Position numbers and translations under genes: made by a program
Shown here: positions 2,113-63,768 of the stretch, in pieces
Numbering within the stretch: position 1 is the stretch's first letter
Layout of the letters: each line of letters opens with the position of its first letter
The notes under the pieces: generated by a model
Seen by the model: only the letters and a program-made list of their open reading frames with translations
Told to the model about the DNA's origin: nothing
Database searches by the model: none
IMG/VR virus record: IMGVR_UViG_3300008050_000020
Strand: one strand, 5' to 3'
Source of the DNA: an uncultured virus (IMG/VR IMGVR_UViG_3300008050_000020)
Taxonomy: Duplodnaviria; Heunggongvirae; Uroviricota; Caudoviricetes
Length of the DNA stretch: 64,000 nt

Positions 2113-5100
2113 ATGGCACGTAGCGTCTCAAAGTCAAAGAATCAAATCATCACCAATGCGGTCTCGGGAGTGGGCTCGACGAGCACTAAGTCTCGAACTG
2201 CATTGTCTATTGCTACTGGCAAGTCCCCAGGGTCAGTGTCAGTATTGGGATTTTTGGGATCAGCCGCAGAAAAGCTAACCATTGACTCTCCTGAGGGCAT
2301 CGATGCACTTTTGTCTGAGCGAGCACTAAGCAGTCTTCGACCCGAACTCCTTTCCCTCTTCAGCTTTCTTCCAGTAAAGTCTGAGACTGACGAAGGAACA
2401 ACAGCGGGCCAGCTTTTTGATCTTCTTGTCACTGCGCGAAACCTCTGGACAGAAGACGTCCAGGCTCTGCAGGCAACACTATCTGAGATTGCAGTTTTTG
2501 ACGAGAGTCTTGAAAATCTGCAAGCTGAGTACGACGAAGAAGTTGCAAGCGTCCAGTCACAGCTTGAATTCTTGTCGAAGATCATGCTAACTGTCAATGA
2601 CATGAAGCGGTCGCTGGATTTGAAGCACAATTCTGATTCGCTGCAGGCAGCTGTTAAGCTTCTTCGGTCATCTCGAGGTGTTGAACTCCCGCCCGTCGGA
2701 CAGTTCAGTACCCCCGCTGGAATTTTGGGCTGTCAGCTTGGGTTCGAGAAGTCTAACGTCGAGGCATTTTCGAACACAAAATTTGTGGGACAGATTCTCG
2801 CGGATTTGGAGGCCTCACTTACCGCGTTCTCACCACAGCTCTTGGGAAGTTACGACTCTGATCGTAAGGATGACACAAGCCCGATCACAATTCTGACGAC
2901 CCTCTCGTCAGACGATGACTTCACATTCACCCCTTCATCAGTCAGATCACAGACTAGCAATTTGCTAACTCACCAGCTCGGCACTGGGGCACTTACAAAC
3001 AATCTTTTTGACCCCACAACCGACGCCGACTTCTCAAGTTTTCTTGACAGCCTACCAGCCGACGACGAGGATCGAATCAAGATTCTTATCGTTGCTCTTT
3101 CGAGAGAGCTCCGCATGTCGGCTGGCGTCAAGCTTATGACGGGTACATCTCTTGATGATGCCTACACAGTTGAATCAGGCAACTTGATGACAAGGATCAT
3201 CGGGAACCCGGGCGAAAAGATTACTGACGGAATCCCCAGCGAAGGATCCCTTGCTAGCATTAGTCGATTCCTCGACGCCGACGGCAATGTTATTTTGCCG
3301 CTTGAAAGTCGTGTCATCATTGATCCAGATGAGGAAAAGACGTTTGTTCCCGGGACAATCTTCCTGGTCGACAGAATCCTTCGAGGCTCTGATAAGTTCA
3401 AGACTAACGCGCTTGATGACTACGCATCAAGCGTCAAGTCTACTGTAGAGAACGGTTCATCGGCAATCGCAAAGTTGATGAACTTTGACGATGAGCATCG
3501 AACCCTTTACTACATCTCAGTCTTCAAAGACATTATGTCCTTTGTTGCGGACTCAATTGAAACGCTCGTAAAGGGTGCGTCAATCACCGAGGAGCAGGCG
3601 CTGGGTGCTGCCCTTCTAGTTGCTGCACAAACAGATCCGACTCTTAAGCGGCAGCTCTTCAATTATCTCGTCGCTATTCGTGCCGGCGGCTACGTGTCAT
3701 CTTCAACGTCTGATCCGTCGGGAGGCGGGACCAGTGGAGGCGGTTCTGGTGGCGGGCGCCGAGGCGGTCCGGGAGGACTACCTGGACTCGATGATTTCGG
3801 AGAAGCTGCAGCTGAAGCCGCAGCCGAAGCAGATGCGACCTCTACACGATCAAGAGGAAGCCGGAGCACCAATCCATCTAAGGCCATCTCAGCAGTGTCA
3901 GCAATTAAGTCAACTAAGAGCAGTCTAGGCAGCGCTGTAGCGTCAATGGTTGTTCGAGGAACACCCTCTTCCATCGAGCAGCGCGTTGAAACTCTCTTTG
4001 CAGAATCATTGACAACAGCCAGAGCTTTGGGTCACTCAAGGCAGACTTTGAGGCGAAGCAGCTCAGAGGCATCGAGAACGGTTACTCTTGCTGACGGTTC
4101 AATCACAGACATCCTGGACGCGGGATCATCAAATGACAATTTCATCTTCTCTAAGATGGCAGATTATGCTGACGAGCAGTTAGAGTCAGCAACCCGAATT
4201 GTTGCCGCAGGCAACTCACATCGCTATGATGACGATCAGACAAAGACGTCAACCGGGCTCACAAGAATGAACAGATTGTCAGATGATACTCTGCTTCTGC
4301 TTCTCTTTGAGACAGTCGTTTCATTCTATAGTGCATTCGTCGATGTCAAGTTCTCATCCGCATCTGATGGCGGCCAGGTTAAGATTTCTGTCAACAAGTC
4401 AAAGTGCAGCACAGTAAGAAGCAAGATGCTATCACTGGCCGAGCGAATCTCAGAGTCGAGCTATTTGAGTACGAAAACTGGGACATCACGATCATCACTA
4501 AGTTCGTCAGAGTCATATTCTGCTAAGTTGCAAGCTCTGGCTGAAGTTTTTGAAGCTGAGGAAGCTTTGATCAGAGATCAGGTCGACATGCTTCGAGCAA
4601 TTTCGTCAACGCTGAGCGCACAGGCGGCTACGACATCTTCTTTCTTTGGTTCGTCATCTTCTTCAACGACGGGCAAGAAGCTCACAGCCCTGCTGGAGAA
4701 TGCTGATGGTGACGCTCTCGTTGAAGGGTTGTCAAATATGCAAGTTACGTTGGGCTGGAAGGCTAGCGAAGATCTTCTGCTGTCATCAGACGACTCTCTA
4801 CTACCCGATGAAACTGTTCTGACTGACAGTGAAATTAATGCTGTTAAAGCACTCCTTCTCGAGGCACAATTTGTATCGCCAGCAGGAGACAATCTAAAGA
4901 TTCTGTCAGTAGGAATGCCTGCCGGCCTGCTGACGTCATTGCAGCATCCGACATTCACCGTGGGTGAAGATACAAGTATTGCATCCACATCAGCGGATCT
5001 TGTGACAGTCAAGGTTTATCGTCTTGATCCTGAGTTTGAGGACTTGGTTTTCAAGCCCATGGCGTTTGTTTTCGATATGTCTCGATTCGCCATGAATCGA

Positions 5101-6003
5101 GCAGCAATCGGAGAAGGAGTTACTCTAGATTCTGTGCTGTCGTCGGGCTATGGCCTTCGAGAGGTTAATCCCGAGGCAGGTTTGGGCTCGCTGGATATTG
5201 CCTCTACGATGTCCCAGCAGTCTGAGTACGAAGGGCTCACAGGTCAAGAGATTGAAAATCTCGTTCGCAATCACATTGTTCACGAGCTTCTTAGGCTCTA
5301 CGTCAAGATTCTCTCGGGTATGAACTTCGCGGAGTATACATTCCTTGTTGATGAAGGCTTGCTTGATGTGACGTATACCGACGCTGCTCTAGAGTTCTTC
5401 GAGACATTTCTGGAGAGCACCGACGTACCCTGTGTTAGTTCTACTGCGAGTAATTCGAATGTTGCACTCTATGTCAAGGGGCTGCAGGACGGCCTCTCTG
5501 CGAAAGATGCAATGGTTTACTCAATTCAGAACTCGTCAAGTCAAATTGCAGCAGCTGCAAAGGCATCAGCGAGCACCACAGCGAGCACCTCTTCATCATC
5601 TGGTACATGCGCGATGGACGCTCTGGCTGGAGCTGATAGTGAAGAGGTCGACGATGTTGACTCCACTGAAGAGGACAACGATCTGGATTCCGAACTCGTT
5701 GCTCGGTTTAAGCGGCTTATCTCGACGGTCTTCTTTAACAAGTCCGCACTCAGCGTAAGGGCAATGCAGACGAAGATGTTCGAGAGAACATTCATGCTGC
5801 CCGTCGATCCAGATGAATTCGTAATTGATGTTGATGAAACTTCATCAACTCGAGCAGGTAAGCGGTTGCTACGAAGCGCTGCGTTTAAGAACTGCACAGT
5901 TGAGACCGAAGATTCGAATGGCAACTCTGTTTTGAAGCTTGCTGGTCGAGAGACAGAGTTTTCTGAATTCTTCTCGGTCATTTCTTTGGGAGTTGATCTC
6001 TGA
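2113..6003 (+). CDS. Large Ser-rich hypothetical protein, probably virion-associated
   Basis: 1296-aa ORF tightly coupled to its neighbours (TGATG overlap at 6001-6005). Has Ser/Gly low-complexity linkers and no recognisable catalytic motif. Confidence 0.6.
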   Translation: MARSVSKSKNQIITNAVSGVGSTSTKSRTALSIATGKSPGSVSVLGFLGSAAEKLTIDSPEGIDALLSERALSSLRPELLSLFSFLPVKSETDEGTTAGQLFDLLVTARNLWTEDVQALQATLSEIAVFDESLENLQAEYDEEVASVQSQLEFLSKIMLTVNDMKRSLDLKHNSDSLQAAVKLLRSSRGVELPPVGQFSTPAGILGCQLGFEKSNVEAFSNTKFVGQILADLEASLTAFSPQLLGSYDSDRKDDTSPITILTTLSSDDDFTFTPSSVRSQTSNLLTHQLGTGALTNNLFDPTTDADFSSFLDSLPADDEDRIKILIVALSRELRMSAGVKLMTGTSLDDAYTVESGNLMTRIIGNPGEKITDGIPSEGSLASISRFLDADGNVILPLESRVIIDPDEEKTFVPGTIFLVDRILRGSDKFKTNALDDYASSVKSTVENGSSAIAKLMNFDDEHRTLYYISVFKDIMSFVADSIETLVKGASITEEQALGAALLVAAQTDPTLKRQLFNYLVAIRAGGYVSSSTSDPSGGGTSGGGSGGGRRGGPGGLPGLDDFGEAAAEAAAEADATSTRSRGSRSTNPSKAISAVSAIKSTKSSLGSAVASMVVRGTPSSIEQRVETLFAESLTTARALGHSRQTLRRSSSEASRTVTLADGSITDILDAGSSNDNFIFSKMADYADEQLESATRIVAAGNSHRYDDDQTKTSTGLTRMNRLSDDTLLLLLFETVVSFYSAFVDVKFSSASDGGQVKISVNKSKCSTVRSKMLSLAERISESSYLSTKTGTSRSSLSSSESYSAKLQALAEVFEAEEALIRDQVDMLRAISSTLSAQAATTSSFFGSSSSSTTGKKLTALLENADGDALVEGLSNMQVTLGWKASEDLLLSSDDSLLPDETVLTDSEINAVKALLLEAQFVSPAGDNLKILSVGMPAGLLTSLQHPTFTVGEDTSIASTSADLVTVKVYRLDPEFEDLVFKPMAFVFDMSRFAMNRAAIGEGVTLDSVLSSGYGLREVNPEAGLGSLDIASTMSQQSEYEGLTGQEIENLVRNHIVHELLRLYVKILSGMNFAEYTFLVDEGLLDVTYTDAALEFFETFLESTDVPCVSSTASNSNVALYVKGLQDGLSAKDAMVYSIQNSSSQIAAAAKASASTTASTSSSSGTCAMDALAGADSEEVDDVDSTEEDNDLDSELVARFKRLISTVFFNKSALSVRAMQTKMFERTFMLPVDPDEFVIDVDETSSTRAGKRLLRSAAFKNCTVETEDSNGNSVLKLAGRETEFSEFFSVISLGVDL

Positions 6004-7778
6004 TGTCCTCCATCTCTTACCCTTCACGAACTCTCAATGTAGTTGACATTCCCGAGGTCAGTAGCTACACTGCAGAGTTCCAGTACAACTTCTTTGCTGT
6101 CGATGAGAGCATCAATGACGAGGGCGGCAACTCTGGAGGCGTAGCGTCAGCTACTGAGCTTGTCAATCTCAAGGGGAGCACTCCCCGTTTCGTGAAGTTG
6201 ACCTGGTCTCCTGTCACGATTCAAGATTGCACCTCGCTGGTGGGTGCATTCTCACCTCGAAATGCCACCCCGCTGGGTGATCCAGACAAGCTTCTCACGA
6301 CAACTAATGTCCGCAAAATTCAGTCTGAGCTTGCATTTTCAAACTTTGATTTCGCCGCAATCAACTTCCAGGATACTGGCCTCGACGGCACACTCTTCAA
6401 GATGGTATCTGGCTCTCTAGGGCTGAGGGGTATCACGAGCGGCAGTTTGACAGAGGCAGCAAAAACACTCAATGATCTGACGTCGAATCGTGTTGACGGA
6501 AATGTTCTCATTGATGCGATCAATTCACTGTCAGCGTGCGGAGTTGAGTTTGCTGATTTTGACTTGACGCACCTGACTGAGAGGACAACCCTTCAGAAGT
6601 TGCGCGAAGTTGTTCTCCATACACAGGTCAGCAACAAGGTCATTGGAACTCTTGTCAACTCTGTTATCGACGACAGGTTGAACCTCTACGCAGACGAATT
6701 TGCTGATTTAGTTGCTGATGCCACTGCACTACAAGAGGCAGCCCGCGCTGGCCTTGACGCAACTTCAATGTCTTCACTTGATTACGACTCTGGGTTCACG
6801 CCCATTAAGATCGAGTCTGTAGATGAGACGGCGTCAGGAGTTGATTCAAGAGTTATCCAGGGCGTCGGCTATATCGTTGAAAAGAACGAGTACGTTGGCA
6901 AAATCACTATCCCGCATGATCCAGTTATCGTTGTTGGCCCCACAACGTCGATTGCTCTTGACACTCGCGTAAAGTACGGAAGCATTTATGGCTACACAGT
7001 TAAGGCTGTTGTAGCGGTTCGTCTTCCAATGGTGACAACGACTGGTGAGTCTGTTCTGGGAACAGGTCTTATTGCTTCGAGAGGTAGCACCGAGATTTTG
7101 GTGCAATGCACTGAGAACACGCCCCCGCCGCCTCCCGCAGACTTCAGGCCAGACTGGGACTTTGCGAACAATCAGCTTCGTCTTCTCTGGTCGTTTCCAG
7201 TCAACCCACAGCGAGACATCAAGCGATTCCAGATCTTTCGACGAAAGACCACTGATTTGCCATTTGAGCTGCTGGGCGAGTATGATTTTGACGATTCCCT
7301 CGAAAGGCTCCCGCGCAGTGAGAGAGTTCCAAAGCGATTCATCACTAAGATGATCAACAATCCACAGACCAAGTTTGTGGATTTGAACTTCGACAAAGAC
7401 TCGTCCCACATCTACGCGCTGTGCTGCATTGATGCTCACGGGCTAAGTTCAAATTACTCAATTCAGTATAGAGTGACTTTCGACCGCTTTGGCAACAATT
7501 TGAATCTAGAGATGGTCTCTCGTGCGGGAGCACCTAAGGCGCTTCCCAATCTCTACCTCCAGGAAAATGTCTTCGTCGACACCATGAAGACGTCTGGATT
7601 TGATCGAATGTCTATCTACTTTGATCCTGAGTACCTTGACGTAAAAGACGCCGACGGGAACGATCTTTCACTTCTGCCACTAAGCGACCCACGCGATGTC
7701 TACAAGATGCAGGTTATCAACACAGACATTCAAGAAGCAGAAGTTTTGACAATCAAGCTCAAGGACTTACGTTCCTGA
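6003..7778 (+). CDS. Hypothetical virion protein with FnIII-like C-terminal region
   Basis: 591-aa ORF. The segment PPPPPADF...LRLLWSFP...KRFQIFRR...HIYALCCIDAHGLSS has an FnIII-like pattern. Confidence 0.55.
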   Translation: MSSISYPSRTLNVVDIPEVSSYTAEFQYNFFAVDESINDEGGNSGGVASATELVNLKGSTPRFVKLTWSPVTIQDCTSLVGAFSPRNATPLGDPDKLLTTTNVRKIQSELAFSNFDFAAINFQDTGLDGTLFKMVSGSLGLRGITSGSLTEAAKTLNDLTSNRVDGNVLIDAINSLSACGVEFADFDLTHLTERTTLQKLREVVLHTQVSNKVIGTLVNSVIDDRLNLYADEFADLVADATALQEAARAGLDATSMSSLDYDSGFTPIKIESVDETASGVDSRVIQGVGYIVEKNEYVGKITIPHDPVIVVGPTTSIALDTRVKYGSIYGYTVKAVVAVRLPMVTTTGESVLGTGLIASRGSTEILVQCTENTPPPPPADFRPDWDFANNQLRLLWSFPVNPQRDIKRFQIFRRKTTDLPFELLGEYDFDDSLERLPRSERVPKRFITKMINNPQTKFVDLNFDKDSSHIYALCCIDAHGLSSNYSIQYRVTFDRFGNNLNLEMVSRAGAPKALPNLYLQENVFVDTMKTSGFDRMSIYFDPEYLDVKDADGNDLSLLPLSDPRDVYKMQVINTDIQEAEVLTIKLKDLRS

Positions 7779-7810
7779 GTCATCTCCTTTATCCGACTTG
7801 CAGTCGGGCA

Positions 7811-7818
7811 TATAGTTA
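7811..7818 (+). promoter_or_regulatory. Putative phage late promoter (TATAGTTA)
   Basis: Instance of the recurring intergenic nATAnnTA motif, upstream of GAGG and the ATG at 7841. Confidence 0.55.
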
Positions 7819-7840
7819 CTAGCCGACGTGAGGTAAGTTC

Positions 7841-8473
7841 ATGGTTGTCTACCTGATCACTAACAGCAATAGCGGAAAGCGCTACGTGGGAAAGACCACG
7901 AAGCTGCTTGATGTTCGCTGGCGTGGTCATGTAGCTACCAGCTTATCGTCTGACGTTCCGCTAGCACGTGCAATCAAGAAGCACGGCACAGACGCATTCA
8001 CTCGCGAGGTTCTCGAAGCATGTGACTCGCTGGACATGCTCAATGAGCGTGAGATCTTCTGGATCCAGAAGCTCGACACGTATCACGGCCGCGGCTACAA
8101 CGCCACACCAGGCGGAGACGGTAACGGAGCTCGCTTCGGCCCCGAGAATCACAACTTTGGGAAGGCATGGGGCAAGCTCGACTGGTCGACCGAAGAGCGA
8201 GCAGCAATGTCTGCTGCTCGCATGGGTAGAAATAATCCGATGTTTGGGCGAACCCACTCAATTGAGATTCGCAAGCGAATCTCCGAGTCAGGACGAGACC
8301 GTGCTGGTGTGTGTCGAAAGGTCAAGCAGTTCACACGCGATGGAAACTTCGTAGCTGAATATGTATCGATCGTGCGCGCAGCAGAAGCAATCGAAGGACG
8401 ATGTGCTGGAATCCGTCGGGTTCTAAGTGGCGAGCGTCCGTACTACTACAATTTTTCCTGGCAGTACGCGTAA
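7841..8473 (+). CDS. Free-standing GIY-YIG homing endonuclease with NUMOD3/NUMOD1-like DNA-binding domains
   Basis: N-terminal VVYLITN...KRYVGKT...RWRGH...REIFWI...GYN is a GIY-YIG catalytic domain. NNPMFGRTHS is NUMOD3-like. KVKQFTRDGNFVAEYVSI is NUMOD1/IENR1-like. Confidence 0.9.
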   Translation: MVVYLITNSNSGKRYVGKTTKLLDVRWRGHVATSLSSDVPLARAIKKHGTDAFTREVLEACDSLDMLNEREIFWIQKLDTYHGRGYNATPGGDGNGARFGPENHNFGKAWGKLDWSTEERAAMSAARMGRNNPMFGRTHSIEIRKRISESGRDRAGVCRKVKQFTRDGNFVAEYVSIVRAAEAIEGRCAGIRRVLSGERPYYYNFSWQYA

Positions 8474-58221: not shown

Positions 58222-59052
58222 ATGGGACTCGATCTCGACGCAATTCGTAAGAAGCTCGCCGGCCTTTCCGGCGGCAACCGCCCCAAGAAGATCAAGTTTG
58301 AGGACGGCAAGCAGCGCGTGTTGCGCATCGTTGCCTTCCCTGACAACGACGGACAGCCCTTCAAGGAGCGCTACGTCTACAGTATCGGCAAGGAGTGGAA
58401 TCTCCTCGCCCCCTTCCAGTTCGGTAAGGATGACCCGATCAAGGCTCTCACCGACAAGCTTCGCTCTCGTGAAGGCAAGTCAGAGTCGCAGGCTTCTGAG
58501 GACTGGAATCTCGCCAAGCAGCTCCTGGCGAAGATGAAGCATCACGCTATCGTCATTGATCGTGATGACGAAGCCGCCGGTCCGATTCTCTGGCCGTTTA
58601 GCCAGTCGGTTGCCAAGCGCCTCTACGAGATTATGCTCGATGAGGATTACGGTGACATCACTGACCTTGAGCAGGGCTTCGACCTGAAGGTCAAGCGAGT
58701 CAAGGAAGACAACGGATTCCGCGCTTACAAGATTGACCCGCGCCCGAAGCAGACTCCGCTGTCCAAGGACGGTGACCAGGCCGCCAAGTGGCTGGACAAT
58801 CTCCCGACTGACATCGACGGTCTCTACAAGGAGAAGTCCTCTGATGAGCTTGATGCCATCCTCACCAAGTACCTGAATGGCGACGAAGAGGCTGACGGCG
58901 CGAGCGGTAGCACTGGCACTGAGCGCGGAGGCTCTTCCAAGAGCTCTTCGTCTAGCGCAGAGACTGCTGCTGCTGGGGACGACTCCGTATCTGGACAGAC
59001 CTTCGAGGATCTGGACAGCGCGTTTGACGACCTTATGACTGAAGACGCCTGA
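58222..59052 (+). CDS. Single-stranded DNA-binding protein (gp32-like)
   Basis: MGLDLDAIRKKL, LRIVAF...PFKER, DPI, IDRDDE..GP.LW.F, DYGDITDLEQGFDL, acidic tail DLDSAFDDLM. Upstream of recA. Confidence 0.85.
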   Translation: MGLDLDAIRKKLAGLSGGNRPKKIKFEDGKQRVLRIVAFPDNDGQPFKERYVYSIGKEWNLLAPFQFGKDDPIKALTDKLRSREGKSESQASEDWNLAKQLLAKMKHHAIVIDRDDEAAGPILWPFSQSVAKRLYEIMLDEDYGDITDLEQGFDLKVKRVKEDNGFRAYKIDPRPKQTPLSKDGDQAAKWLDNLPTDIDGLYKEKSSDELDAILTKYLNGDEEADGASGSTGTERGGSSKSSSSSAETAAAGDDSVSGQTFEDLDSAFDDLMTEDA

Positions 59053-59140: not shown

Positions 59141-60448
59141 ATGGCTAAGCAAACCGATGCGGTGGACGACTTCACCTCTGACCTCATTAAGTCCCTCAAC
59201 AAAGAAGCTGGCTCAAAGGTTGCTTTCAACCTGGCCGAGGACGAATCTCCAACACACGTAAAGCGTTGGATCTCGTCAGGAAGCCGCTTGCTTGATTGGA
59301 TTGTTGCCAACAAGGTTGAGGGAGGCTATCCCGAAGGTCGAATTGTCGAAATCTTCGGCGATCCTGGCATTGGAAAGTCACATATCGCTGCGCAGATTTG
59401 TCGGTCAGCACAGAAGATGGGCGGTCTTGCTGTCTACATTGACACTGAGAATGCTACCAGCCCTGAAAACCTTGATCAGCTGGGCGTTCGAATTGACCGA
59501 CAGTTCGTCTATGTCTCGGAGCATTGCACAGAGAATGTGCTGAGTTACGCTGAGAAGACGATGATCAAGGCGCGAGCTCTCATGGGCAGCGGAAAGGATA
59601 TCCCAGTTGTCATCATCTGGGACTCTGTTGCTGCGACGTCTCCCAAGGCAGAGCTCGACGGCGAATACGACCAGAACTCCATCGGGCTTCAGGCTCGAAC
59701 CATCTCAAAGGGAATGCGAAAGATCACTGGAATTGTCGGTGATAACAACGTTCTTCTCGTTTGCCTCAATCAGACACGAACAAAGATTGGCGTCATGTAC
59801 GGCGACCCGACCACAACATCGGGCGGAAAGGCGATTCCATTCCACAGCTCAGTCCGCATTCAGCTCTTTGGTGGGAATCACATCAAGAACGATTTGGGCG
59901 AGATCATTGGAATCCACGTGAAGGCCAAGACGATCAAGAACAAGGTGGCAATGCCCTTCAGGCGCGCCGAGTTTGAGATTCATTTTGGCTATGGGATCAA
60001 GGAGTCAACGCAAATCTTCGAGCTCATGAAGGAATACGGTCCGACGCTTATCGGTGACAAGATCGTAGGTATTGGCAACTTCGCGGGGGACGGTCATCGT
60101 AAAATGATTGTTCTTCCGACTGCCAACGGAGAATTCAGTCTCGACGACTTTGAGTTCAATAAGAAGAAGAATCGCTTCAAGTGGCCGACGAAGGGCAATT
60201 TCCAGAAGAAGAAGATGGCTGAGCAGGCTCTAATTCACAAAAGCTTCTATCTGAAGGCTTTCGAGGATCTGCTCGAGGATCCCGATGTCAAGGATTACCT
60301 CGACGCACTGCTAGCCAAAATCATGACTCGCACATCTAAGAAGCGATTCGACGAAGACTCGGACATCAATCCTGAGTCCTATGTAGAGATGCAAGCGCTC
60401 GCGGCTGAGATCGAAGAAGGTCTTGGTGATTTGAGCGACCTGGAGTAG
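59141..60448 (+). CDS. recA: RecA/UvsX recombinase
   Basis: ISSGSRLLD, GGYPEGRIVEIFGDPGIGKS, YIDTEN, IWDSVAA, GLQAR, LNQTRTKIGVMYGDPTTTSGGKAIPFHSSVRI, KNKVAMPFR. Confidence 0.95.
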   Translation: MAKQTDAVDDFTSDLIKSLNKEAGSKVAFNLAEDESPTHVKRWISSGSRLLDWIVANKVEGGYPEGRIVEIFGDPGIGKSHIAAQICRSAQKMGGLAVYIDTENATSPENLDQLGVRIDRQFVYVSEHCTENVLSYAEKTMIKARALMGSGKDIPVVIIWDSVAATSPKAELDGEYDQNSIGLQARTISKGMRKITGIVGDNNVLLVCLNQTRTKIGVMYGDPTTTSGGKAIPFHSSVRIQLFGGNHIKNDLGEIIGIHVKAKTIKNKVAMPFRRAEFEIHFGYGIKESTQIFELMKEYGPTLIGDKIVGIGNFAGDGHRKMIVLPTANGEFSLDDFEFNKKKNRFKWPTKGNFQKKKMAEQALIHKSFYLKAFEDLLEDPDVKDYLDALLAKIMTRTSKKRFDEDSDINPESYVEMQALAAEIEEGLGDLSDLE

Positions 60449-60450
60449 TA

Positions 60451-60504
60451 ATGCAGAGCTCGGCGCCCATTCTTATCGTCGACGTTTCGTCAGTCACTTT
60501 GTAG
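60451..60504 (+). pseudogene. Orphaned 5' stub of the 5'-3' exonuclease gene
   Basis: SD GGAG, then ATG, reading MQSSAPILIVDVSSVTL*. SSAPILIVD is identical to the N-terminus of the gene at 61372. Confidence 0.85.
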
Positions 60505-60526
60505 CTGGTCTGCCTACCTACTCTCG

Positions 60527-61393
60527 ATGAGTCGGGCACACAACTACAAGCATCTCTCGGCAGAGGCTTTGTCCTCTGCTGTTGCTGCGTTCAGAGACGG
60601 TTCGACAATCGACGAAGTTCGAGAGTCTTGCGGTGTTGGACGAAACAAGATGATTCGCCTCCTCAAGGAGGCATTGGGCGAAGAGTACGAGTCTGTTGCA
60701 AAGCAGACACGCATTCGTCGATCCGCCCGCGAGGCACATCGAGCAAACACGGGACGAAAGAGAGGCCCGATGCCGATGTCTCAGCGACAGGCAATCTCCC
60801 AAGCGAAGATGGGTAAGTCTCTGTCTGATGAGCATCGACAGAGTATTTCTGAGGGACTTCATCGACATATTGCAGACAATGGGTTCTGGCACGACAAGGC
60901 GACGTGCCTCGAGATTGGCAGAAAGTCTCGCGATACGAAGCGACAGCAAGGCCTCTACGAAGAGTTCGGCAGAAAGATCAGCCAGCGATGGGCCGAGGGA
61001 TGCTATGAGAATCTCTACGGGAGTGGGCTGTGGCGTTCCAAGATCGAGGAGAGAGTCGAAGAGGTACTCTCAGATGTGTACGAGGTAGAAGGATCACATC
61101 GACTTGCTGTCGAAGGACGCCGCTACTGCTTTGACATCCTGCTGGTCGAGCACCTCCTTCTCATCGAGATCAACGGCGACTACTGGCATTGTAACCCTTC
61201 GAAGTACGATGCTGAGTTTTTTCATCCTCATCGGAAGCTGAACTCCAAGGCCATCTGGGAGTATGATTCACTGAAGGCTGCTGATGCCCAGGTCGCAGGG
61301 TTCAACACTCTCACACTCTGGGAAGAGGATGTGAATCGATGGACGGACAACGAGATTCTCGAGGCAGTCAAGTGTCATCTGCACCAATCCTGA
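60527..61393 (+). CDS. Free-standing homing endonuclease (NUMOD3-like repeats + Vsr/DUF559-like nuclease)
   Basis: N-terminal HTH-like region, QRQAISQAKMGKSLSDEHRQSIS repeats, C-terminal SKIE...FDILL...LLIEINGDYWHCNP...D..K...GFNTLTLWE. Confidence 0.85.
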   Translation: MSRAHNYKHLSAEALSSAVAAFRDGSTIDEVRESCGVGRNKMIRLLKEALGEEYESVAKQTRIRRSAREAHRANTGRKRGPMPMSQRQAISQAKMGKSLSDEHRQSISEGLHRHIADNGFWHDKATCLEIGRKSRDTKRQQGLYEEFGRKISQRWAEGCYENLYGSGLWRSKIEERVEEVLSDVYEVEGSHRLAVEGRRYCFDILLVEHLLLIEINGDYWHCNPSKYDAEFFHPHRKLNSKAIWEYDSLKAADAQVAGFNTLTLWEEDVNRWTDNEILEAVKCHLHQS

Positions 61394-62346
61394 TTGTTGA
61401 TGCACTAAACTTGTTTACGCGACATTTCATTGCGAACCCTGCAATGGTGTCTACGGGTTATCGCGCAGGCGAGCCCGCGGGCGGCATTGTAGGGTTTTTG
61501 AACTCTCTGAGATGGCTGATTGATACTCAGCATCCCAGCAGAGTTGTTGTTGTATGGGAGTCTGGGGGTTCGGCACGCAAGCGGAATCTGTTCAAAGAGT
61601 ACAAAGCTCATCGACGGCCCCAAAAGCTCAATCGATACTACGAAGACGACATCCCGGATACTACCGAGAATCGAAATTGGCAAGTTGCAACGATTGTGGC
61701 ACTTCTTCGATTCGTAGGCATCAATCAGGTCTATGTTCAGGACTGTGAAGCGGATGATGTCATTGGCTACATCTGTCGATACAAGTTTCCTGGACGACGA
61801 AAGGTAATTCTCTCGTCAGACAAAGACTTCTATCAGCTCCTGGACAAGGACACGCGTGTCTACAACCCTATGGGAAAGCGTTACGTGCTACCCGAGGATG
61901 TTTTTGAGCGCTTCGGAATCAAGCCACACAACTTTTGCACTGCCAAGGCACTGTGTGGTGACCCATCTGACAATATTCCGGGAATCAAAGGGGTCGGCTT
62001 TAAGACGCTTGCCAAGCGATTTCCGCAACTCGCGTCAGAAGATGATGTCTCTGTTCGCGACATCATTGCAGACGCCCAGAGCCGAATCGATCCCAAGGGA
62101 AAGGGTCCCAAGATCTACCAGCGCATTGTCGACGGAGAAGAGATTCTTCTTCGCAATTGGAAGCTGATGTATCTTGATACTCAAAACCTGTCGGGAAATC
62201 AGATTAAGCGCATTGAGCACGCAATTGATAATTTCAGCCCTGTGCGCGATAAGATGGGCCTCATGAGGAAGCTGGTGAAGGAGGGCATCTCCTCCTTCGA
62301 TGCTGATCGCTTTTTCACAGTCTGCAGGACCTACCTCAGAGACTAA
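61372..62346 (+). CDS. 5'-3' exonuclease / flap endonuclease (T4 RNase H-like)
   Basis: ILIVDALN, EYKAHR, CEADDVIG, SSDKDFYQL, GDPSDNIPGIKGVGFKT. GTG start at 61372 after GAGG. Confidence 0.93.
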   Translation: MSSAPILIVDALNLFTRHFIANPAMVSTGYRAGEPAGGIVGFLNSLRWLIDTQHPSRVVVVWESGGSARKRNLFKEYKAHRRPQKLNRYYEDDIPDTTENRNWQVATIVALLRFVGINQVYVQDCEADDVIGYICRYKFPGRRKVILSSDKDFYQLLDKDTRVYNPMGKRYVLPEDVFERFGIKPHNFCTAKALCGDPSDNIPGIKGVGFKTLAKRFPQLASEDDVSVRDIIADAQSRIDPKGKGPKIYQRIVDGEEILLRNWKLMYLDTQNLSGNQIKRIEHAIDNFSPVRDKMGLMRKLVKEGISSFDADRFFTVCRTYLRD

Positions 62347-62361: not shown

Positions 62362-63768
62362 ATGACCGACACACCTGGTCAGGGCACAGTTGTCCCTCAC
62401 TTCAACAGGTACGATAAGCCCTTTCAGGAGAAGATCCTTCAGGCTCTACTGACTGACCGCGACTGGTCAGCTCAAATGGTCGAAGTGATGACTCCAGAGT
62501 ACTTTGAGCTCAAGTATCTACACTTCCTGACCGAAAAGTACTTCGAGCACTTTCAGCGTCACCGGACATTCCCGTCCATCTCGCTCATTGCGGCGATGGT
62601 CAAGGATGAGCTCCGCGGAACCGATGAGCGAATTCTCAAGCAGCAGATCGTTGAGTATCTTCATCGCATCAAGTTCACGCCGGCACTTCAAGATCTTGCG
62701 GAGGTAAAGGATAGGACCATTGAGTTCTGTCGAAAGCAGGCGATGAAGGAGGCACTCACGCAGTGTGTGGATCTCATTGAGGAGGGAAAGAACGAGCAGG
62801 TCACGGAGGTCATGAAGACTGCGCTTTCTGTGGGCGTTCCCACCTCTACAGGGCACGATTTCTTCGAAGACTTCGAAGCTCGGTTCGCGGCACAAACTCG
62901 AGTACCTTGTCCGACGGGAATCCCACAGCTTGACCGAGAAGATGTTTTGGCGGGAGGTCTAGCTCGAGGAGAGCTGGGTGTCATTACTGCTAATACTGGT
63001 GTCGGCAAGTCTCACATGCTTGTCAATTTCGGAGCTCACGCACTTCGACAGGGCAAGAACGTACTCCACTACACGTTTGAGCTTTCAGAAACAAAAGTTG
63101 GACTTCGCTACGACTCCAATCTGTGTGACATTCCAAGCAACGAAGTGATTGTGAACAAGGAAACTGTTCGCAAGGCTTATGAAGGGATGGAACTGGGCCG
63201 GCTCATCATCAAGGAGTACCCGACTGGATCAGCGTCAGTTGTCACTTTGCGCTCTCACATTGAGAAGCTGCAAATGAAGGGTTTCAAGCCGTCCCTCATA
63301 CTTATCGATTACGCGGACATCATGCGGTCCACGCGAAGCTACGATTCAATGAGGCACGAGCTCAAGCTGATCTACGTTGAAGTCCGAAACCTTTCGCAAG
63401 AGCTTGGTGTCCCCATCTGGACTGCTAGTCAGGCCAACCGGGATTCTGCAAACTCTGAGATTGTGGGTCTTGAGAACATGGCTGAGGCGTATGGCAAGGC
63501 CATGGTCGCCGATGTTGTCATCTCGATCTCTCGAAAGGCGTCCGAGAAGGCAACTGGCTTCGGTCGACTGTTCGTTGCTAAGAATCGTGCTGGTCGAGAC
63601 GGCTTGCTCTTTCACATCAAGTTGGATACTGCACGGTCGAAGGTGACTGCTGCAGATCCAGATGAGGAGCAGACGTTTGCTGAGGCAGCGGTGCAAGACG
63701 AGGCATACAAAAAGACTCGTCTGACTGAGGCCTACAATGAACTCAAGGCTGAAATCGCGGCTAAGTGA
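62362..63768 (+). CDS. Replicative DnaB-like helicase (gp41-like)
   Basis: PTGIPQLD, GGLARGELG, ANTGVGKS, YTFELSE, IIKEYPTG, IDYADIM, IWTASQANR, KNRAGRDG. Confidence 0.93.
   Translation: MTDTPGQGTVVPHFNRYDKPFQEKILQALLTDRDWSAQMVEVMTPEYFELKYLHFLTEKYFEHFQRHRTFPSISLIAAMVKDELRGTDERILKQQIVEYLHRIKFTPALQDLAEVKDRTIEFCRKQAMKEALTQCVDLIEEGKNEQVTEVMKTALSVGVPTSTGHDFFEDFEARFAAQTRVPCPTGIPQLDREDVLAGGLARGELGVITANTGVGKSHMLVNFGAHALRQGKNVLHYTFELSETKVGLRYDSNLCDIPSNEVIVNKETVRKAYEGMELGRLIIKEYPTGSASVVTLRSHIEKLQMKGFKPSLILIDYADIMRSTRSYDSMRHELKLIYVEVRNLSQELGVPIWTASQANRDSANSEIVGLENMAEAYGKAMVADVVISISRKASEKATGFGRLFVAKNRAGRDGLLFHIKLDTARSKVTAADPDEEQTFAEAAVQDEAYKKTRLTEAYNELKAEIAAK

What the first reader, a model, noticed from the sequence alone, without database searches (positions are those of the whole stretch)
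60451..61401. Endonuclease inserted inside an essential gene and rebuilt its N-terminus with every codon recoded
Seen: the stub at 60457-60483 (agc tcg gcg ccc att ctt atc gtc gac) and the working gene at 61375-61401 (tca tct gca cca atc ctg att gtt gat) both encode SSAPILIVD, but all 9 codons differ synonymously. The break falls right after the first conserved Asp of the exonuclease. The replacement start, with its SD and GTG, is overprinted on the endonuclease 3' end. I see no room for an intron core, and the endonuclease is not an in-frame intein. Known: homing endonucleases target conserved codons and normally avoid gene disruption by splicing or by sitting between genes. Inference: a splicing-free homing strategy in which the element carries a recoded, cleavage-resistant 5' gene end that also avoids a direct repeat that could excise it.
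Basis: partly seen in the sequence, partly recalled or inferred. Interest (0 to 1): 0.85.

Follow-up and report, generated by a model that had tools for sequence, protein, structure and literature searches.

The report
Homing endonuclease carrying replacement gene start
A selfish endonuclease gene sits inside the first codons of a marine phage's essential flap-nuclease gene and keeps that gene working, without any splicing, by bringing its own differently spelled copy of the gene's start.

Summary
After the RecA/UvsX-like gene lies a dead stub (60451-60505, MQSSAPILIVD+6 codons+TAG), then a 288-aa endonuclease gene (60527-61393), then the working 5'-3' exonuclease (FEN) gene. Its SSAPILIVD (61375-61401) differs from the stub at 9 of 9 codons (16/27 nt, longest shared run 2 nt).

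The endonuclease has the Vsr-like/EDxHD homing-endonuclease fold. No intron or intein is present.

Full-length homologues of the endonuclease sit next to the FEN start in 8 other contigs. Stub + endonuclease + respelled copy recurs at a glycosyltransferase gene in five sister lineages, where 3/11 to 10/13 codons differ. Total respelling is therefore not obligatory, and its adaptive role is untested.

Precedents exist: the T4 MobA 'homR' and fungal mitochondrial mORF gene hybrids. This is a new variant of a known kind.

The main side finding is that most sister elements carry a stop-containing 5-13-nt spacer flanked by matched codons. This implies natural ribosomal 'stop-hops', which a 2016 review says were known only from synthetic constructs. 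The window's copy has no such spacer.

The parts
59141..60448 (+). RecA/UvsX-like recombinase gene, the upstream neighbour. In relatives the FEN gene starts at or within 70 nt of its stop.
   Evidence: Pfam RecA E 1.4e-61. PHROG UvsX-like 3.2e-65. In 75 of 80 related loci the FEN frame opens within 70 nt of the RecA stop.
60451..60505 (+). Stub: the native 5' end of FEN (codons 1-11, MQSSAPILIVD, 60451-60483), then six codons of element DNA (VSSVTL) and TAG. It sits in the native position, 2 nt after the RecA stop.
   Evidence: The peptide is identical (11 of 11) to the N-terminus of the uninterrupted relatives P0001, P0123 and P0126.
60484..61401 (+). Inferred inserted element: 918 bp made of leader, endonuclease gene, N-terminal extension and respelled copy of codons 3-11. 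It lies between the Asp codon (GAC) and the Ala codon (GCA).
   Evidence: Inference from the stub end, the resumption of FEN at GCA CTA AAC and the uninterrupted protein alleles. The right-hand boundary cannot be fixed without DNA of an empty allele.
60443..60523 (+). Imperfect inverted repeat (arms 60443-60457 and 60509-60523, 80% complementary). It encloses the stub and ends 4 nt before the endonuclease ATG. A role in translational control is possible but not shown.
   Evidence: the repeat finder I5. The fold of 60440-60600 is not more stable than shuffles (z -0.88).
60527..61393 (+). Homing endonuclease gene, 288 aa. N-terminal helical DNA-binding part, and a C-terminal Vsr-like/EDxHD nuclease domain (residues about 168-288; IEINGDYWHCNP).
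61339..61374 (+). Element-encoded N-terminal extension of FEN (MDGQRDSRGSQV), read in another frame of the endonuclease 3' end. It holds both candidate starts, ATG 61339 and GTG 61372.
   Evidence: The extension MDGQR... is shared by a second lineage, P0122.
61375..61401 (+). Respelled copy of codons 3-11 (SSAPILIVD). The first six codons overlap the last endonuclease codons and its TGA (61391-61393).
61339..62346 (+). Working FEN / 5'-3' exonuclease gene: 335 aa from the ATG, 324 aa from the GTG.
   Evidence: Pfam 5_3_exonuc_N E 6.1e-30; 5_3_exonuc E 1.6e-9 (38.5 bits, just under the 40-bit cut-off). 93% identical to the uninterrupted relatives.
62362..63768 (+). DnaB-like helicase gene, the downstream neighbour (conserved synteny).
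   Evidence: Pfam DnaB_C 4e-21.

Best explanation
A free-standing homing endonuclease gene of the Vsr-like (EDxHD) family has inserted into the FEN gene of an uncultured marine phage, between codon 11 (the first catalytic Asp) and codon 12. The inserted 918 bp carry three things: the endonuclease gene; a short new N-terminal extension with a start codon and ribosome-binding site, written over the endonuclease's own 3' end; and a copy of codons 3-11 that is spelled differently. The downstream reading frame therefore encodes a complete FEN with no RNA or protein splicing. The native first 11 codons stay behind as a dead 17-codon stub.

Inferred mechanism. The enzyme cuts the empty allele at or next to the I-V-D-A-L-N codons. 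The break is repaired from an occupied genome, using the RecA-stub side and the FEN body as homology arms. The stub is then simply the left arm and is renewed at each homing event. The different spelling of the copy stops the left break end from pairing with it, which would repair the gene without copying the element. It also removes the direct repeat that could delete the element, and probably removes half of the enzyme's long recognition site.

Shown: the anatomy, the enzyme family, the absence of an intron or intein, the existence of empty alleles (as proteins), and the recurrence of the layout in sister elements.

Inferred: the cleavage site, homing itself, and the selective value of the respelling.
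For: Anatomy.

Enzyme family.

No intron: Rfam gives only 3 chance matches with E >= 2.5 on the other strand. No intein: the stub frame stops after six codons and no Hint domain is found.

Empty allele in relatives 93% identical, starting (M)MQSSAPILIVDALNLY (P0001, P0123, P0126). A second occupied lineage, P0122, has the same extension.

In 75 of 80 related loci FEN abuts RecA with nothing between.

The same enzyme family keeps to this site. All 7 contigs found in two searches of viral contigs with full-length homologues (31-45% identity) place it next to the FEN start: 6 head-to-tail between RecA and FEN, 1 divergent. L250, found by a separate pattern search, is an eighth such contig.

The layout recurs. 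Among 66 distinct loci with this nuclease domain, a 9-residue peptide is repeated on both sides of the endonuclease gene at 9/9 in the window's contig and in L150, L091, L107 and L134, and at 8/9 in L115. The best match is 4-6 of 9 in 59 loci. The target there is a group-1 glycosyltransferase gene.

The stub is identical in protein (11/11) to the empty allele, as expected if it is native DNA. All 5 database copies of the endonuclease are 99-100% identical, which fits a recent spread.

Codon statistics.

I-Bth0305I, the studied member of the family, cuts next to its insertion site, footprints about 60 bp and tolerates most single substitutions (abstract and passages of PMC3239194). Many changes would therefore be needed for immunity.
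Against: No DNA of an empty allele was obtained, so it is not shown that the stub's spelling is the native one or where the element ends.

No cleavage, homing or expression data exist.

Sister loci with the same layout are respelled only in part: 3 of 11 codons in L107, with a 20-nt identical run. Respelling is therefore not needed for the layout to exist. Pooled over the window and five sister loci, 41 of 66 codons differ, about the 52-60% seen between distant relatives, so the window's 9 of 9 may be the tail of neutral divergence.

Six of the nine codons overlap the endonuclease reading frame, which also constrains their spelling.

The first 42 nt after the site show no extra DNA likeness between the window and other element-bearing alleles: 24.6 versus 26.8 of 42.

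Whether the two occupied lineages are sisters is weakly resolved: 5 shared derived residues against 2 and 2.
Confidence: 0.72

Rival explanations
1. Same architecture, but the different spelling has no function. The element's copy of the 5' end is foreign or old DNA that has drifted to saturation at silent sites, as is assumed for the fungal mitochondrial gene hybrids. Immunity to the enzyme then comes from something else, for instance the insertion itself splitting the site.
For: Fungal mORF hybrids show the same pattern and are read as transfer from a foreign donor: 63.5% nt with 91% aa identity between the two atp6 ends (passages of PMC3630166). Sister loci differ at 27-77% of codons, pooled 41 of 66, close to the 52-60% of distant relatives. 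L107 keeps 30 of 33 nt identical.
Against: The copy matches the stub at 9 of 9 residues, including SSA, which is specific to this lineage (relatives read DRP, ERP, SRP and so on). Yet it shares no codon (P = 0.023 even at saturation; 2 of 209 and 0 of 302 windows). A truly foreign 5' end should also differ in protein.
Confidence: 0.2
2. The insert is removed by splicing, either as a degenerate group I intron or as an intein, and the stub is the true first exon.
For: Vsr-like endonucleases are known inside group I introns and inteins (PMC2677866 passages). Only 43 nt separate the stub's Asp codon from the endonuclease ATG, so the stub could be read as a first exon.
Against: There is no Rfam intron match. 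The endonuclease ORF fills the insert and overlaps FEN. The stub frame ends in TAG after six codons, and no Hint domain is found. Splicing stub to body would double the SSAPILIVD peptide, unless the junctions fell exactly where the copy makes them needless.
Confidence: 0.02
3. The layout is an assembly chimera of two strains, or the FEN gene here is dead.
For: The window comes from metagenomic assembly, and no culture exists.
Against: Identical junction-spanning contigs occur in three further runs, in an IMG/VR contig, and in protein records from several sources (P0124 in 4 sources). The FEN frame is intact and 93% identical to relatives. Sister lineages with interrupted FEN show pN/pS of 0.06-0.10.
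Confidence: 0.02

Closest known systems
T4-type MobA element in the topoisomerase gene (genes 39/60), with its 'homR' and 50-nt bypass (bioRxiv 2022.08.31.505936, passages read; Bonocora et al. 2011 recalled, not read)
   Same: A free-standing phage homing endonuclease inserted inside a conserved enzyme gene. The element encodes an N-terminal extension and a divergent copy of the sequence around the cut site, so the host protein survives without splicing. Reading frames of the element overlap. In the sister loci found here, a translational bypass lies at the junction.
   Different: MobA is an HNH enzyme; this one has the Vsr-like fold. MobA splits the gene into two working subunits and deletes 55-75 nt of it. 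Here the upstream piece is an 11-codon dead stub, the native DNA is kept, and the downstream frame encodes the whole protein. The window has no bypass at all.
Fungal mitochondrial mORF 'gene hybrids': Allomyces atp6; Glomus atp6, atp9, cox2, nad3 (PMC3630166, passages read)
   Same: An endonuclease ORF travels with a replacement gene end. The native end is displaced and left beside it. The two ends are alike in protein and far apart in DNA.
   Different: Those are 3' ends in mitochondria, with LAGLIDADG or GIY-YIG enzymes, often fused in frame. Here it is a 5' end in a phage, so the element must also supply a start codon and ribosome-binding site, which it writes over its own 3' end.
'Fractured genes' with Vsr-like endonucleases, and I-Bth0305I (PMC2677866; PMC3239194)
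   Same: Same enzyme family. Marine phage replication genes are the targets. Free-standing endonuclease genes whose 3' ends overlap the downstream gene (6-69 bp in 15 loci of that paper).
   Different: Those genes are rescued by split inteins or a group I intron, or in one SbcD-like case are left in two halves. No duplicated, respelled gene end is described in the passages I read.
Intronless homing by free-standing endonucleases of T-even phages (SegF, SegG, MobE; overview in PMC2988022, seen only as a search listing; details recalled)
   Same: No splicing element. The enzyme cuts a nearby conserved gene of the empty genome. Occupied genomes are protected by sequence differences.
   Different: Those genes sit between genes. 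This one sits inside the coding sequence and has to rebuild the gene's start.
Synthetic 'home-and-rescue' and 'cleave-and-rescue' gene drives carrying a recoded, cut-resistant copy of an essential target (recalled; no paper read)
   Same: A nuclease aimed at an essential gene, plus a recoded rescue copy inside the drive.
   Different: Those are engineered, RNA-guided and eukaryotic. The likeness is one of logic only.

Membership tests
Vsr-like / EDxHD homing endonucleases (I-Bth0305I family) | C-terminal catalytic domain with the Vsr endonuclease fold | tested here: met
Vsr-like / EDxHD homing endonucleases (I-Bth0305I family) | Conserved catalytic Glu/Asp/His/Asp set | tested here: met
   D203, E214, D218, H221 and D247 are invariant in 11 family sequences. 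The spacing D203-H221 is 18 residues and E214-H221 is 7, as for Vsr Asp51/His69 and position 62/His69 quoted in PMC2677866. H221-D247 is 26, against 28 in Vsr. That these residues are equivalent is my inference. The HMMER alignment to 3r3p does not show D and H at the matching places of that chain.
Vsr-like / EDxHD homing endonucleases (I-Bth0305I family) | N-terminal DNA-binding region with NUMOD-type motifs | tested here: inconclusive
   The window's protein has no Pfam match. Homologues P0128, P0129, P0131 and P0132 carry PF07460 (NUMOD3) in precomputed annotation, and the L150 and L134 enzymes match it (E 6e-6 and 4e-6).
Vsr-like / EDxHD homing endonucleases (I-Bth0305I family) | Presence/absence polymorphism at one site among close relatives | tested here: met
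   This was tested at protein level only. The 325/326-aa forms begin MQSSAPILIVDALN; the 335-aa forms carry the element-encoded extension. All lie in one cluster of at least 90% identity.
Vsr-like / EDxHD homing endonucleases (I-Bth0305I family) | Site-specific cleavage of the empty allele, and homing | not testable with these tools
   Needs enzyme assays or co-infection.
Group I intron with an endonuclease ORF | Ribozyme core (P3-P9) flanking or enclosing the ORF | tested here: not met
   Rfam search of 60200-61700 on both strands at E <= 10 gave three unrelated matches, all E >= 2.5 and on the minus strand. Only 43 nt lie before the ORF, and none after it that is not FEN coding sequence.
Intein | In-frame insertion with a Hint splicing domain | tested here: not met
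   The stub frame ends in TAG six codons after the Asp. No Hint/intein Pfam match in the endonuclease.
Endonuclease cassettes that carry a replacement gene end (MobA homR; fungal mORF hybrids) | Endonuclease ORF, plus an element-borne copy of the gene end that is alike in protein and divergent in DNA, plus a working chimeric gene | tested here: met
   Whether the chimeric gene works is inferred from the intact frame and 93% identity to relatives.
Endonuclease cassettes that carry a replacement gene end (MobA homR; fungal mORF hybrids) | Native gene end closer in DNA to empty relatives than the element-borne copy is | not tested
   No DNA of the empty allele was found. Only the protein match of the stub (11/11) is known.
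FEN / 5'-3' exonuclease (host gene) | N-terminal resolvase-like and C-terminal H3TH domains with the first catalytic Asp | tested here: met
   PF02739 E 6.1e-30. PF01367 E 1.6e-9 (38.5 bits, under the 40-bit cut-off). The Asp is at the same position in all 153 N-termini listed.

The most novel reading that the evidence does not exclude
The window's element is the seamless member of an undescribed class of Vsr-like endonuclease cassettes. These colonise the first 10-30 codons of phage genes (FEN, a glycosyltransferase) without splicing, by bringing a replacement gene start.

In most members the joint between the element-borne start and the native body holds a stop codon plus 0-10 further bases, flanked by matched codons (shift +5 to +13 nt). 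Ribosomes would have to hop over this spacer. These would be the first natural 'stop-hops'. They appear driven by a 12-15-bp hairpin ending in the take-off codon (FEN) or by a GGGG Shine-Dalgarno-like run 2-3 nt before it (glycosyltransferase).

In the window, total respelling of the copy stands in for that spacer as the element's self-immunity.
Probability: 0.5. Interest if true: 0.9.

Novelty: new variant of a known kind. Interest (0 to 1): 0.72.

Why it matters
It shows a third way, besides introns and inteins, for a homing endonuclease to live inside the most conserved codons of an essential gene. The element rebuilds the gene's start on its own DNA, including start codon and ribosome-binding site written over its own coding sequence. 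This is the natural counterpart of the recoded-rescue design used in synthetic gene drives.

It also gives a clean system for asking what makes an occupied allele immune: respelling, as here, or a spacer, as in the sister loci.

Such stubs and overprinted starts will mislead gene callers and phylogenies of phage replication genes.

The sister loci matter more widely. They offer dozens of natural, short and varied candidate ribosome hops. Each has a built-in control, because the stub or an uninterrupted homologue shows the expected protein. A 2016 review states that no natural in-frame stop-hop was known.

Tried and rejected
DNA of the empty allele was sought four ways and not found.
- The metagenome scan with P0001 gave 58 loci, the best 69% identical.
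- The genome-contig scan gave nothing.
- The nearest held virus record, G001, does not cover the region.
- Laying contigs of 4 of the 15 listed runs (X6, X8, X9, X10) showed only pieces identical to the window or distant relatives, and no joint skipping the insert.

No RNA holder was listed.

Sequence search of the endonuclease against PDB gave only coiled-coil noise. Pfam gave nothing.

The promoter scan found none, and the 2 terminator-like sites on the other strand are no more than in shuffles.

The fold of the stub/leader region is not special (z -0.88).

No second endonuclease of this family lies in the window.

The insertion between RecA and FEN in L014 holds ordinary genes, not an endonuclease.

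A co-conversion signal was sought in the 42 nt after the site and none was found.

Whether the two occupied lineages form a clade is only weakly supported: 5 versus 2 versus 2 shared derived residues, 8 ambiguous.

No upstream hairpin is present at the glycosyltransferase hop sites (mean z -0.5).

My unfiltered scan for hop-like joints was mostly noise: 556 control sites. Even filtered, 9.8 sites are expected by chance in the tested regions. Only the homologous, recurring joints are counted.

No tRNA genes lie in the seven hop-bearing FEN loci.

Earlier notes of this scan held nothing on this locus.

Literature searches found no description of short hops in phage FEN or glycosyltransferase genes, or of a respelled 5' end beside a phage endonuclease. 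The library lacks most subscription journals, and the supplements of the bioRxiv preprint are closed.
Full report
**What is in the window**

The region reads, on the + strand, in this order:
- a gp32-like gene (58222-59052);
- a RecA/UvsX-like gene (59141-60448; Pfam RecA E 1.4e-61);
- a 17-codon ORF (60451-60505);
- a 288-codon ORF (60527-61393);
- a 5'-3' exonuclease (FEN) gene, open from 61339 to 62346 (PF02739 E 6.1e-30);
- a DnaB-like helicase gene (62362-63768).

The 17-codon ORF starts 2 nt after the RecA stop and reads MQSSAPILIVD, then VSSVTL and TAG. The FEN frame reads MDGQRDSRGSQ-V-SSAPILIVD-ALNLFTRHF.

The two SSAPILIVD stretches (60457-60483 and 61375-61401) share no codon. They are identical at 16 of 27 nt, and their longest common run is 2 nt. 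A DNA repeat finder does not see them.

**Is it more than chance, and is it real DNA?**

With the window's own codon usage, two independent spellings of this peptide differ at every codon with P = 0.023. In comparisons with a relative of 68-72% protein identity, where 52-60% of identical residues use different codons, 2 of 209 and 0 of 302 runs of nine such residues are all different. The pattern is therefore at or beyond silent-site saturation. Yet the protein match is perfect, and it includes the residues SSA, which other relatives do not share.

Contigs of three other sequencing runs cover the stub-to-endonuclease and endonuclease-to-FEN joints without a single difference. An IMG/VR contig is identical.

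**What the neighbours say**

Eighty related loci from viral contigs keep the order gp32-like, RecA, FEN, DnaB. In 75 of them the FEN frame opens within 70 nt of the RecA stop. The exceptions are:
- the window's own contig;
- L014, which has ordinary genes inserted;
- L017 and L019, with 3.7 kb inserted;
- L068, which lacks the upstream DNA.

The stub thus sits exactly where FEN normally begins.

A protein search found a cluster of at least 90% identity that holds both forms. P0001, P0123 and P0126 (325-326 aa) begin (M)MQSSAPILIVDALNLY. P0124 (the window's own) and P0122 (335 aa) begin with the extension MDGQR....

I could not obtain its DNA. The key prediction, that it uses the stub's codons, therefore stays open.

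**The inserted gene**

The 288-aa protein has no Pfam match, but it hits phage endonuclease PHROGs.

D203, E214, D218, H221 and D247 are invariant. Their spacing matches the Vsr catalytic residues quoted by Dassa et al. 2009 (PMC2677866, passages).

That paper also describes free-standing Vsr-like endonuclease genes that break marine phage replication genes, with 3' ends overlapping the downstream gene. I-Bth0305I cuts next to its insertion site, footprints about 60 bp and tolerates most single substitutions (PMC3239194, abstract and passages).

**No splicing**

Rfam finds no intron. Only 43 nt precede the endonuclease ORF, and its 3' end is already FEN coding sequence. The stub frame ends in TAG after six codons, and no Hint domain is present. 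Because the downstream frame already encodes the whole protein, splicing would be pointless.

**The element keeps to this site**

Full-length homologues of the endonuclease (31-45% identical) were found in 7 viral contigs by two searches. Six lie head-to-tail between RecA and FEN, and one lies head-to-head with FEN. An eighth contig, L250, turned up in a later pattern search. These phages' FEN proteins are only about 50% identical to the window's. The enzyme family has therefore followed this gene start across distant phages. None of those contigs has a stub.

**The layout recurs at another gene**

I scanned all loci holding this nuclease domain (109 loci, 66 distinct) for a 9-residue peptide present on both sides of the endonuclease ORF. 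The best match is 4-6 of 9 in 59 loci. It is 9 of 9 in the window's contig and in L150, L091, L107 and L134, 8 of 9 in L115 and 7 of 9 in L240.

The four to five new cases share one target, a group-1 glycosyltransferase gene (Pfam E 8e-8). Each shows the native start as a short stub, then the endonuclease gene (antisense in L134), then an extension plus a second copy of the first 11-15 residues, then the gene body.

The copies differ from the stubs at 8 of 13, 10 of 13, 2 of 5, 3 of 11 and 9 of 15 codons. These include Ser TCN/AGY and Arg CGN/AGR switches. L107 keeps a 20-nt identical run.

Complete respelling is not part of its definition.

**How it most likely works**

The best account is a homing cassette whose left homology arm is RecA plus the stub, and whose right arm is the FEN body.

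This explains why the stub is still a perfect copy of the empty allele's start. It is native DNA, renewed at each homing event. A dead 33-nt remnant as old as the 6-7% protein divergence among the three lineages should have decayed.

It also explains why the element's copy must be unlike the stub. Otherwise the left break end could pair with the copy, and repair would restore the gene without the element.

All five database copies of the endonuclease are 99-100% identical, which fits a recent spread.

Cleavage site, homing and immunity are inferences. A neutral reading, in which an old or foreign copy has simply saturated, is not excluded. Pooled over six loci, 41 of 66 codons differ, about the saturation level. 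Six of the window's nine codons are also constrained by the overlapping endonuclease frame.

**Comparison with what is known**

Two precedents are close.
- The T4 MobA element deletes 55-75 nt of the topoisomerase gene and replaces it with an element-encoded, divergent 'homR' inside an N-terminal extension. A 50-nt bypass insert, not the polymorphisms, gives immunity (bioRxiv 2022.08.31.505936, passages).
- Fungal mitochondrial mORFs carry a foreign C-terminal gene end and displace the native one: 63.5% nt and 91% aa identity between the two atp6 ends (PMC3630166, passages).

The window's case is the 5'-end, phage, Vsr-like version. The upstream piece is a useless stub, and the element supplies the start signals on its own coding sequence. 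I rate it a new variant of a known kind.

**Side finding: probable natural ribosome hops in the sister loci**

*FEN gene.* In all 7 contigs where the endonuclease lies head-to-tail before FEN (L219-L224, L250), and in 6 further contigs without it, FEN carries an in-frame stop inside the catalytic motif: I-D-G-L-stop-L-N, spelled CTT TAG or TAA, then CTC/CTG/CTA/CTT. That is 6 nt more than any other FEN.
- This covers 13 contigs in at least 7 lineages only 42-54% identical to each other.
- Of 101 distinct FEN starts, 10 carry the stop and 91 do not.
- 8 of the 21 pattern hits were chance matches outside FEN.

The 306-323 codons after the stop are under strong purifying selection. pN/pS is 0.06-0.10 at pS 0.33-0.54 in three pairs; a fourth pair is too similar to tell.

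The 45 nt ending in the CTT fold into a 12-15-bp hairpin. Mean energy is -20.2 against -6.7 kcal/mol in stop-less genes (Mann-Whitney P about 1e-6). Compensatory changes occur in 5 of 15 pairs, a level reached by 5 of 500 shuffles.

*Glycosyltransferase gene.* The joint varies between loci:
- GGC TGA GGT and GGT TAA GGC (+6);
- AGT TG AGC (+5);
- AGC TGAA AGC (+7);
- AGC TGACA AGC (+8);
- AGC TGACTA AGC (+9);
- GGT TGAATAAA GGT (+11);
- GGC TGAATTTAAA GGA (+13).

In every case matched codons flank a stop. The product of a hop equals the stub-encoded or uninterrupted sequence; L127 and L082 are uninterrupted comparators. The frame changes rule out readthrough.

Fourteen of 15 such sites have GGGG (one has GGAG) 2-3 nt before the take-off codon. 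This run is made by GGG where 4 of 5 stubs have GGT. My recollection is that this resembles the Shine-Dalgarno-like stimulator of the RF2 frameshift.

A 2016 review states that 'stop-hops' with matched codons flanking a stop were made in synthetic constructs, but that no natural occurrences are known (PMC5009743, passages). My searches found nothing later.

The window itself has neither stop nor hairpin. It is the seamless member, and the only one with every codon respelled. This suggests, on few cases, that heavy respelling and a spacer are alternative routes to immunity.

**Verdict**

The structural interpretation is supported. The adaptive interpretation is plausible but untested, and sister loci show it is not obligatory. 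The finding is moderately novel in itself and leads to a wider class that deserves follow-up.

Noticed in passing
L220:4435-4491, L223:4462-4518, L250:2468-2524, L233 (=L056):2468-2524, L236:2468-2524, L237:2019-2075(-), L243:2498-2554(-): FEN genes of at least 7 phage lineages (13 contigs) carry an in-frame TAG or TAA flanked by Leu codons (CTT-stop-CTN) inside the catalytic I-D-G-L|N motif. A 12-15-bp hairpin ends in the CTT. The 306-323 codons after the stop are under purifying selection (pN/pS 0.06-0.10). This is a candidate natural 6-nt 'stop-hop'. All 7 contigs with the endonuclease head-to-tail before FEN have it.
   Followed up: yes
L150:3491-3540, L091:3374-3420, L115:3545-3600 (=L113:3581), L107:1406-1450, L142:3530, L134:2100-2200(-), L112:3614, L117:3407, L123:2870, L155:3413: A group-1 glycosyltransferase gene of marine phages is the main target of this endonuclease family. 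At the joint between the element-borne start and the gene body, a stop plus 0-10 nt lies between matched Gly or Ser codons (shift +5 to +13, in and out of frame). GGGG lies 2-3 nt upstream. Five lineages also keep the native start as a stub.
   Followed up: yes
L056:3931-4000 (also L078): The 70 nt between RecA and FEN keep a remnant of the endonuclease 3' end (GGGDHP-stop in its frame) and the hop cassette, but no endonuclease gene. This suggests loss of the enzyme with retention of the cassette, as reported for MobA.
   Followed up: partly
L150:3528-5843: The same glycosyltransferase gene also holds an intein with a LAGLIDADG domain (Pfam LAGLIDADG_3, E 2e-8; ...GGSCMTPDTEIL ... IGNSHLKD). 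One gene therefore carries three kinds of selfish or recoding element.
   Followed up: partly
L017 and L019 (also L175, L176): about 5000-7974: The DnaB-like helicase is split (residues 14-217 and 217-434), with a Vsr-like nuclease domain hit between the halves. This is a 'fractured gene' of the kind described by Dassa et al. 2009 and already noted by this scan on other DNA.
   Followed up: no
L225:2313-4961: A double-length homologue of the endonuclease (559 aa, two N-terminal modules) lies head-to-head with FEN, with the starts overlapping by about 20 nt. That FEN has neither stub nor stop.
   Followed up: no
protein P0011 (332 aa) and P0128 (326 aa), both recorded on a contig of 278,273 bp: A FEN 61% identical to the window's has a long N-terminal extension and reads IVDASSLF instead of IVDALNLF at the target motif. 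The closest endonuclease homologue (45%) is recorded on a contig of the same length. This may be a third way of altering the site. No DNA was seen.
   Followed up: no
L223:4400-4560 versus L222 and L224: A silent Ile change in FEN (ATT to ATC) removes the endonuclease's overlapping TGA in L223 and lengthens its tail. This shows how tightly the two overprinted frames are coupled.
   Followed up: no
window 60443-60523: An imperfect inverted repeat brackets the stub and ends 4 nt before the endonuclease ATG, which has no Shine-Dalgarno sequence. The stub may serve as a leader that delivers or blocks ribosomes.
   Followed up: partly
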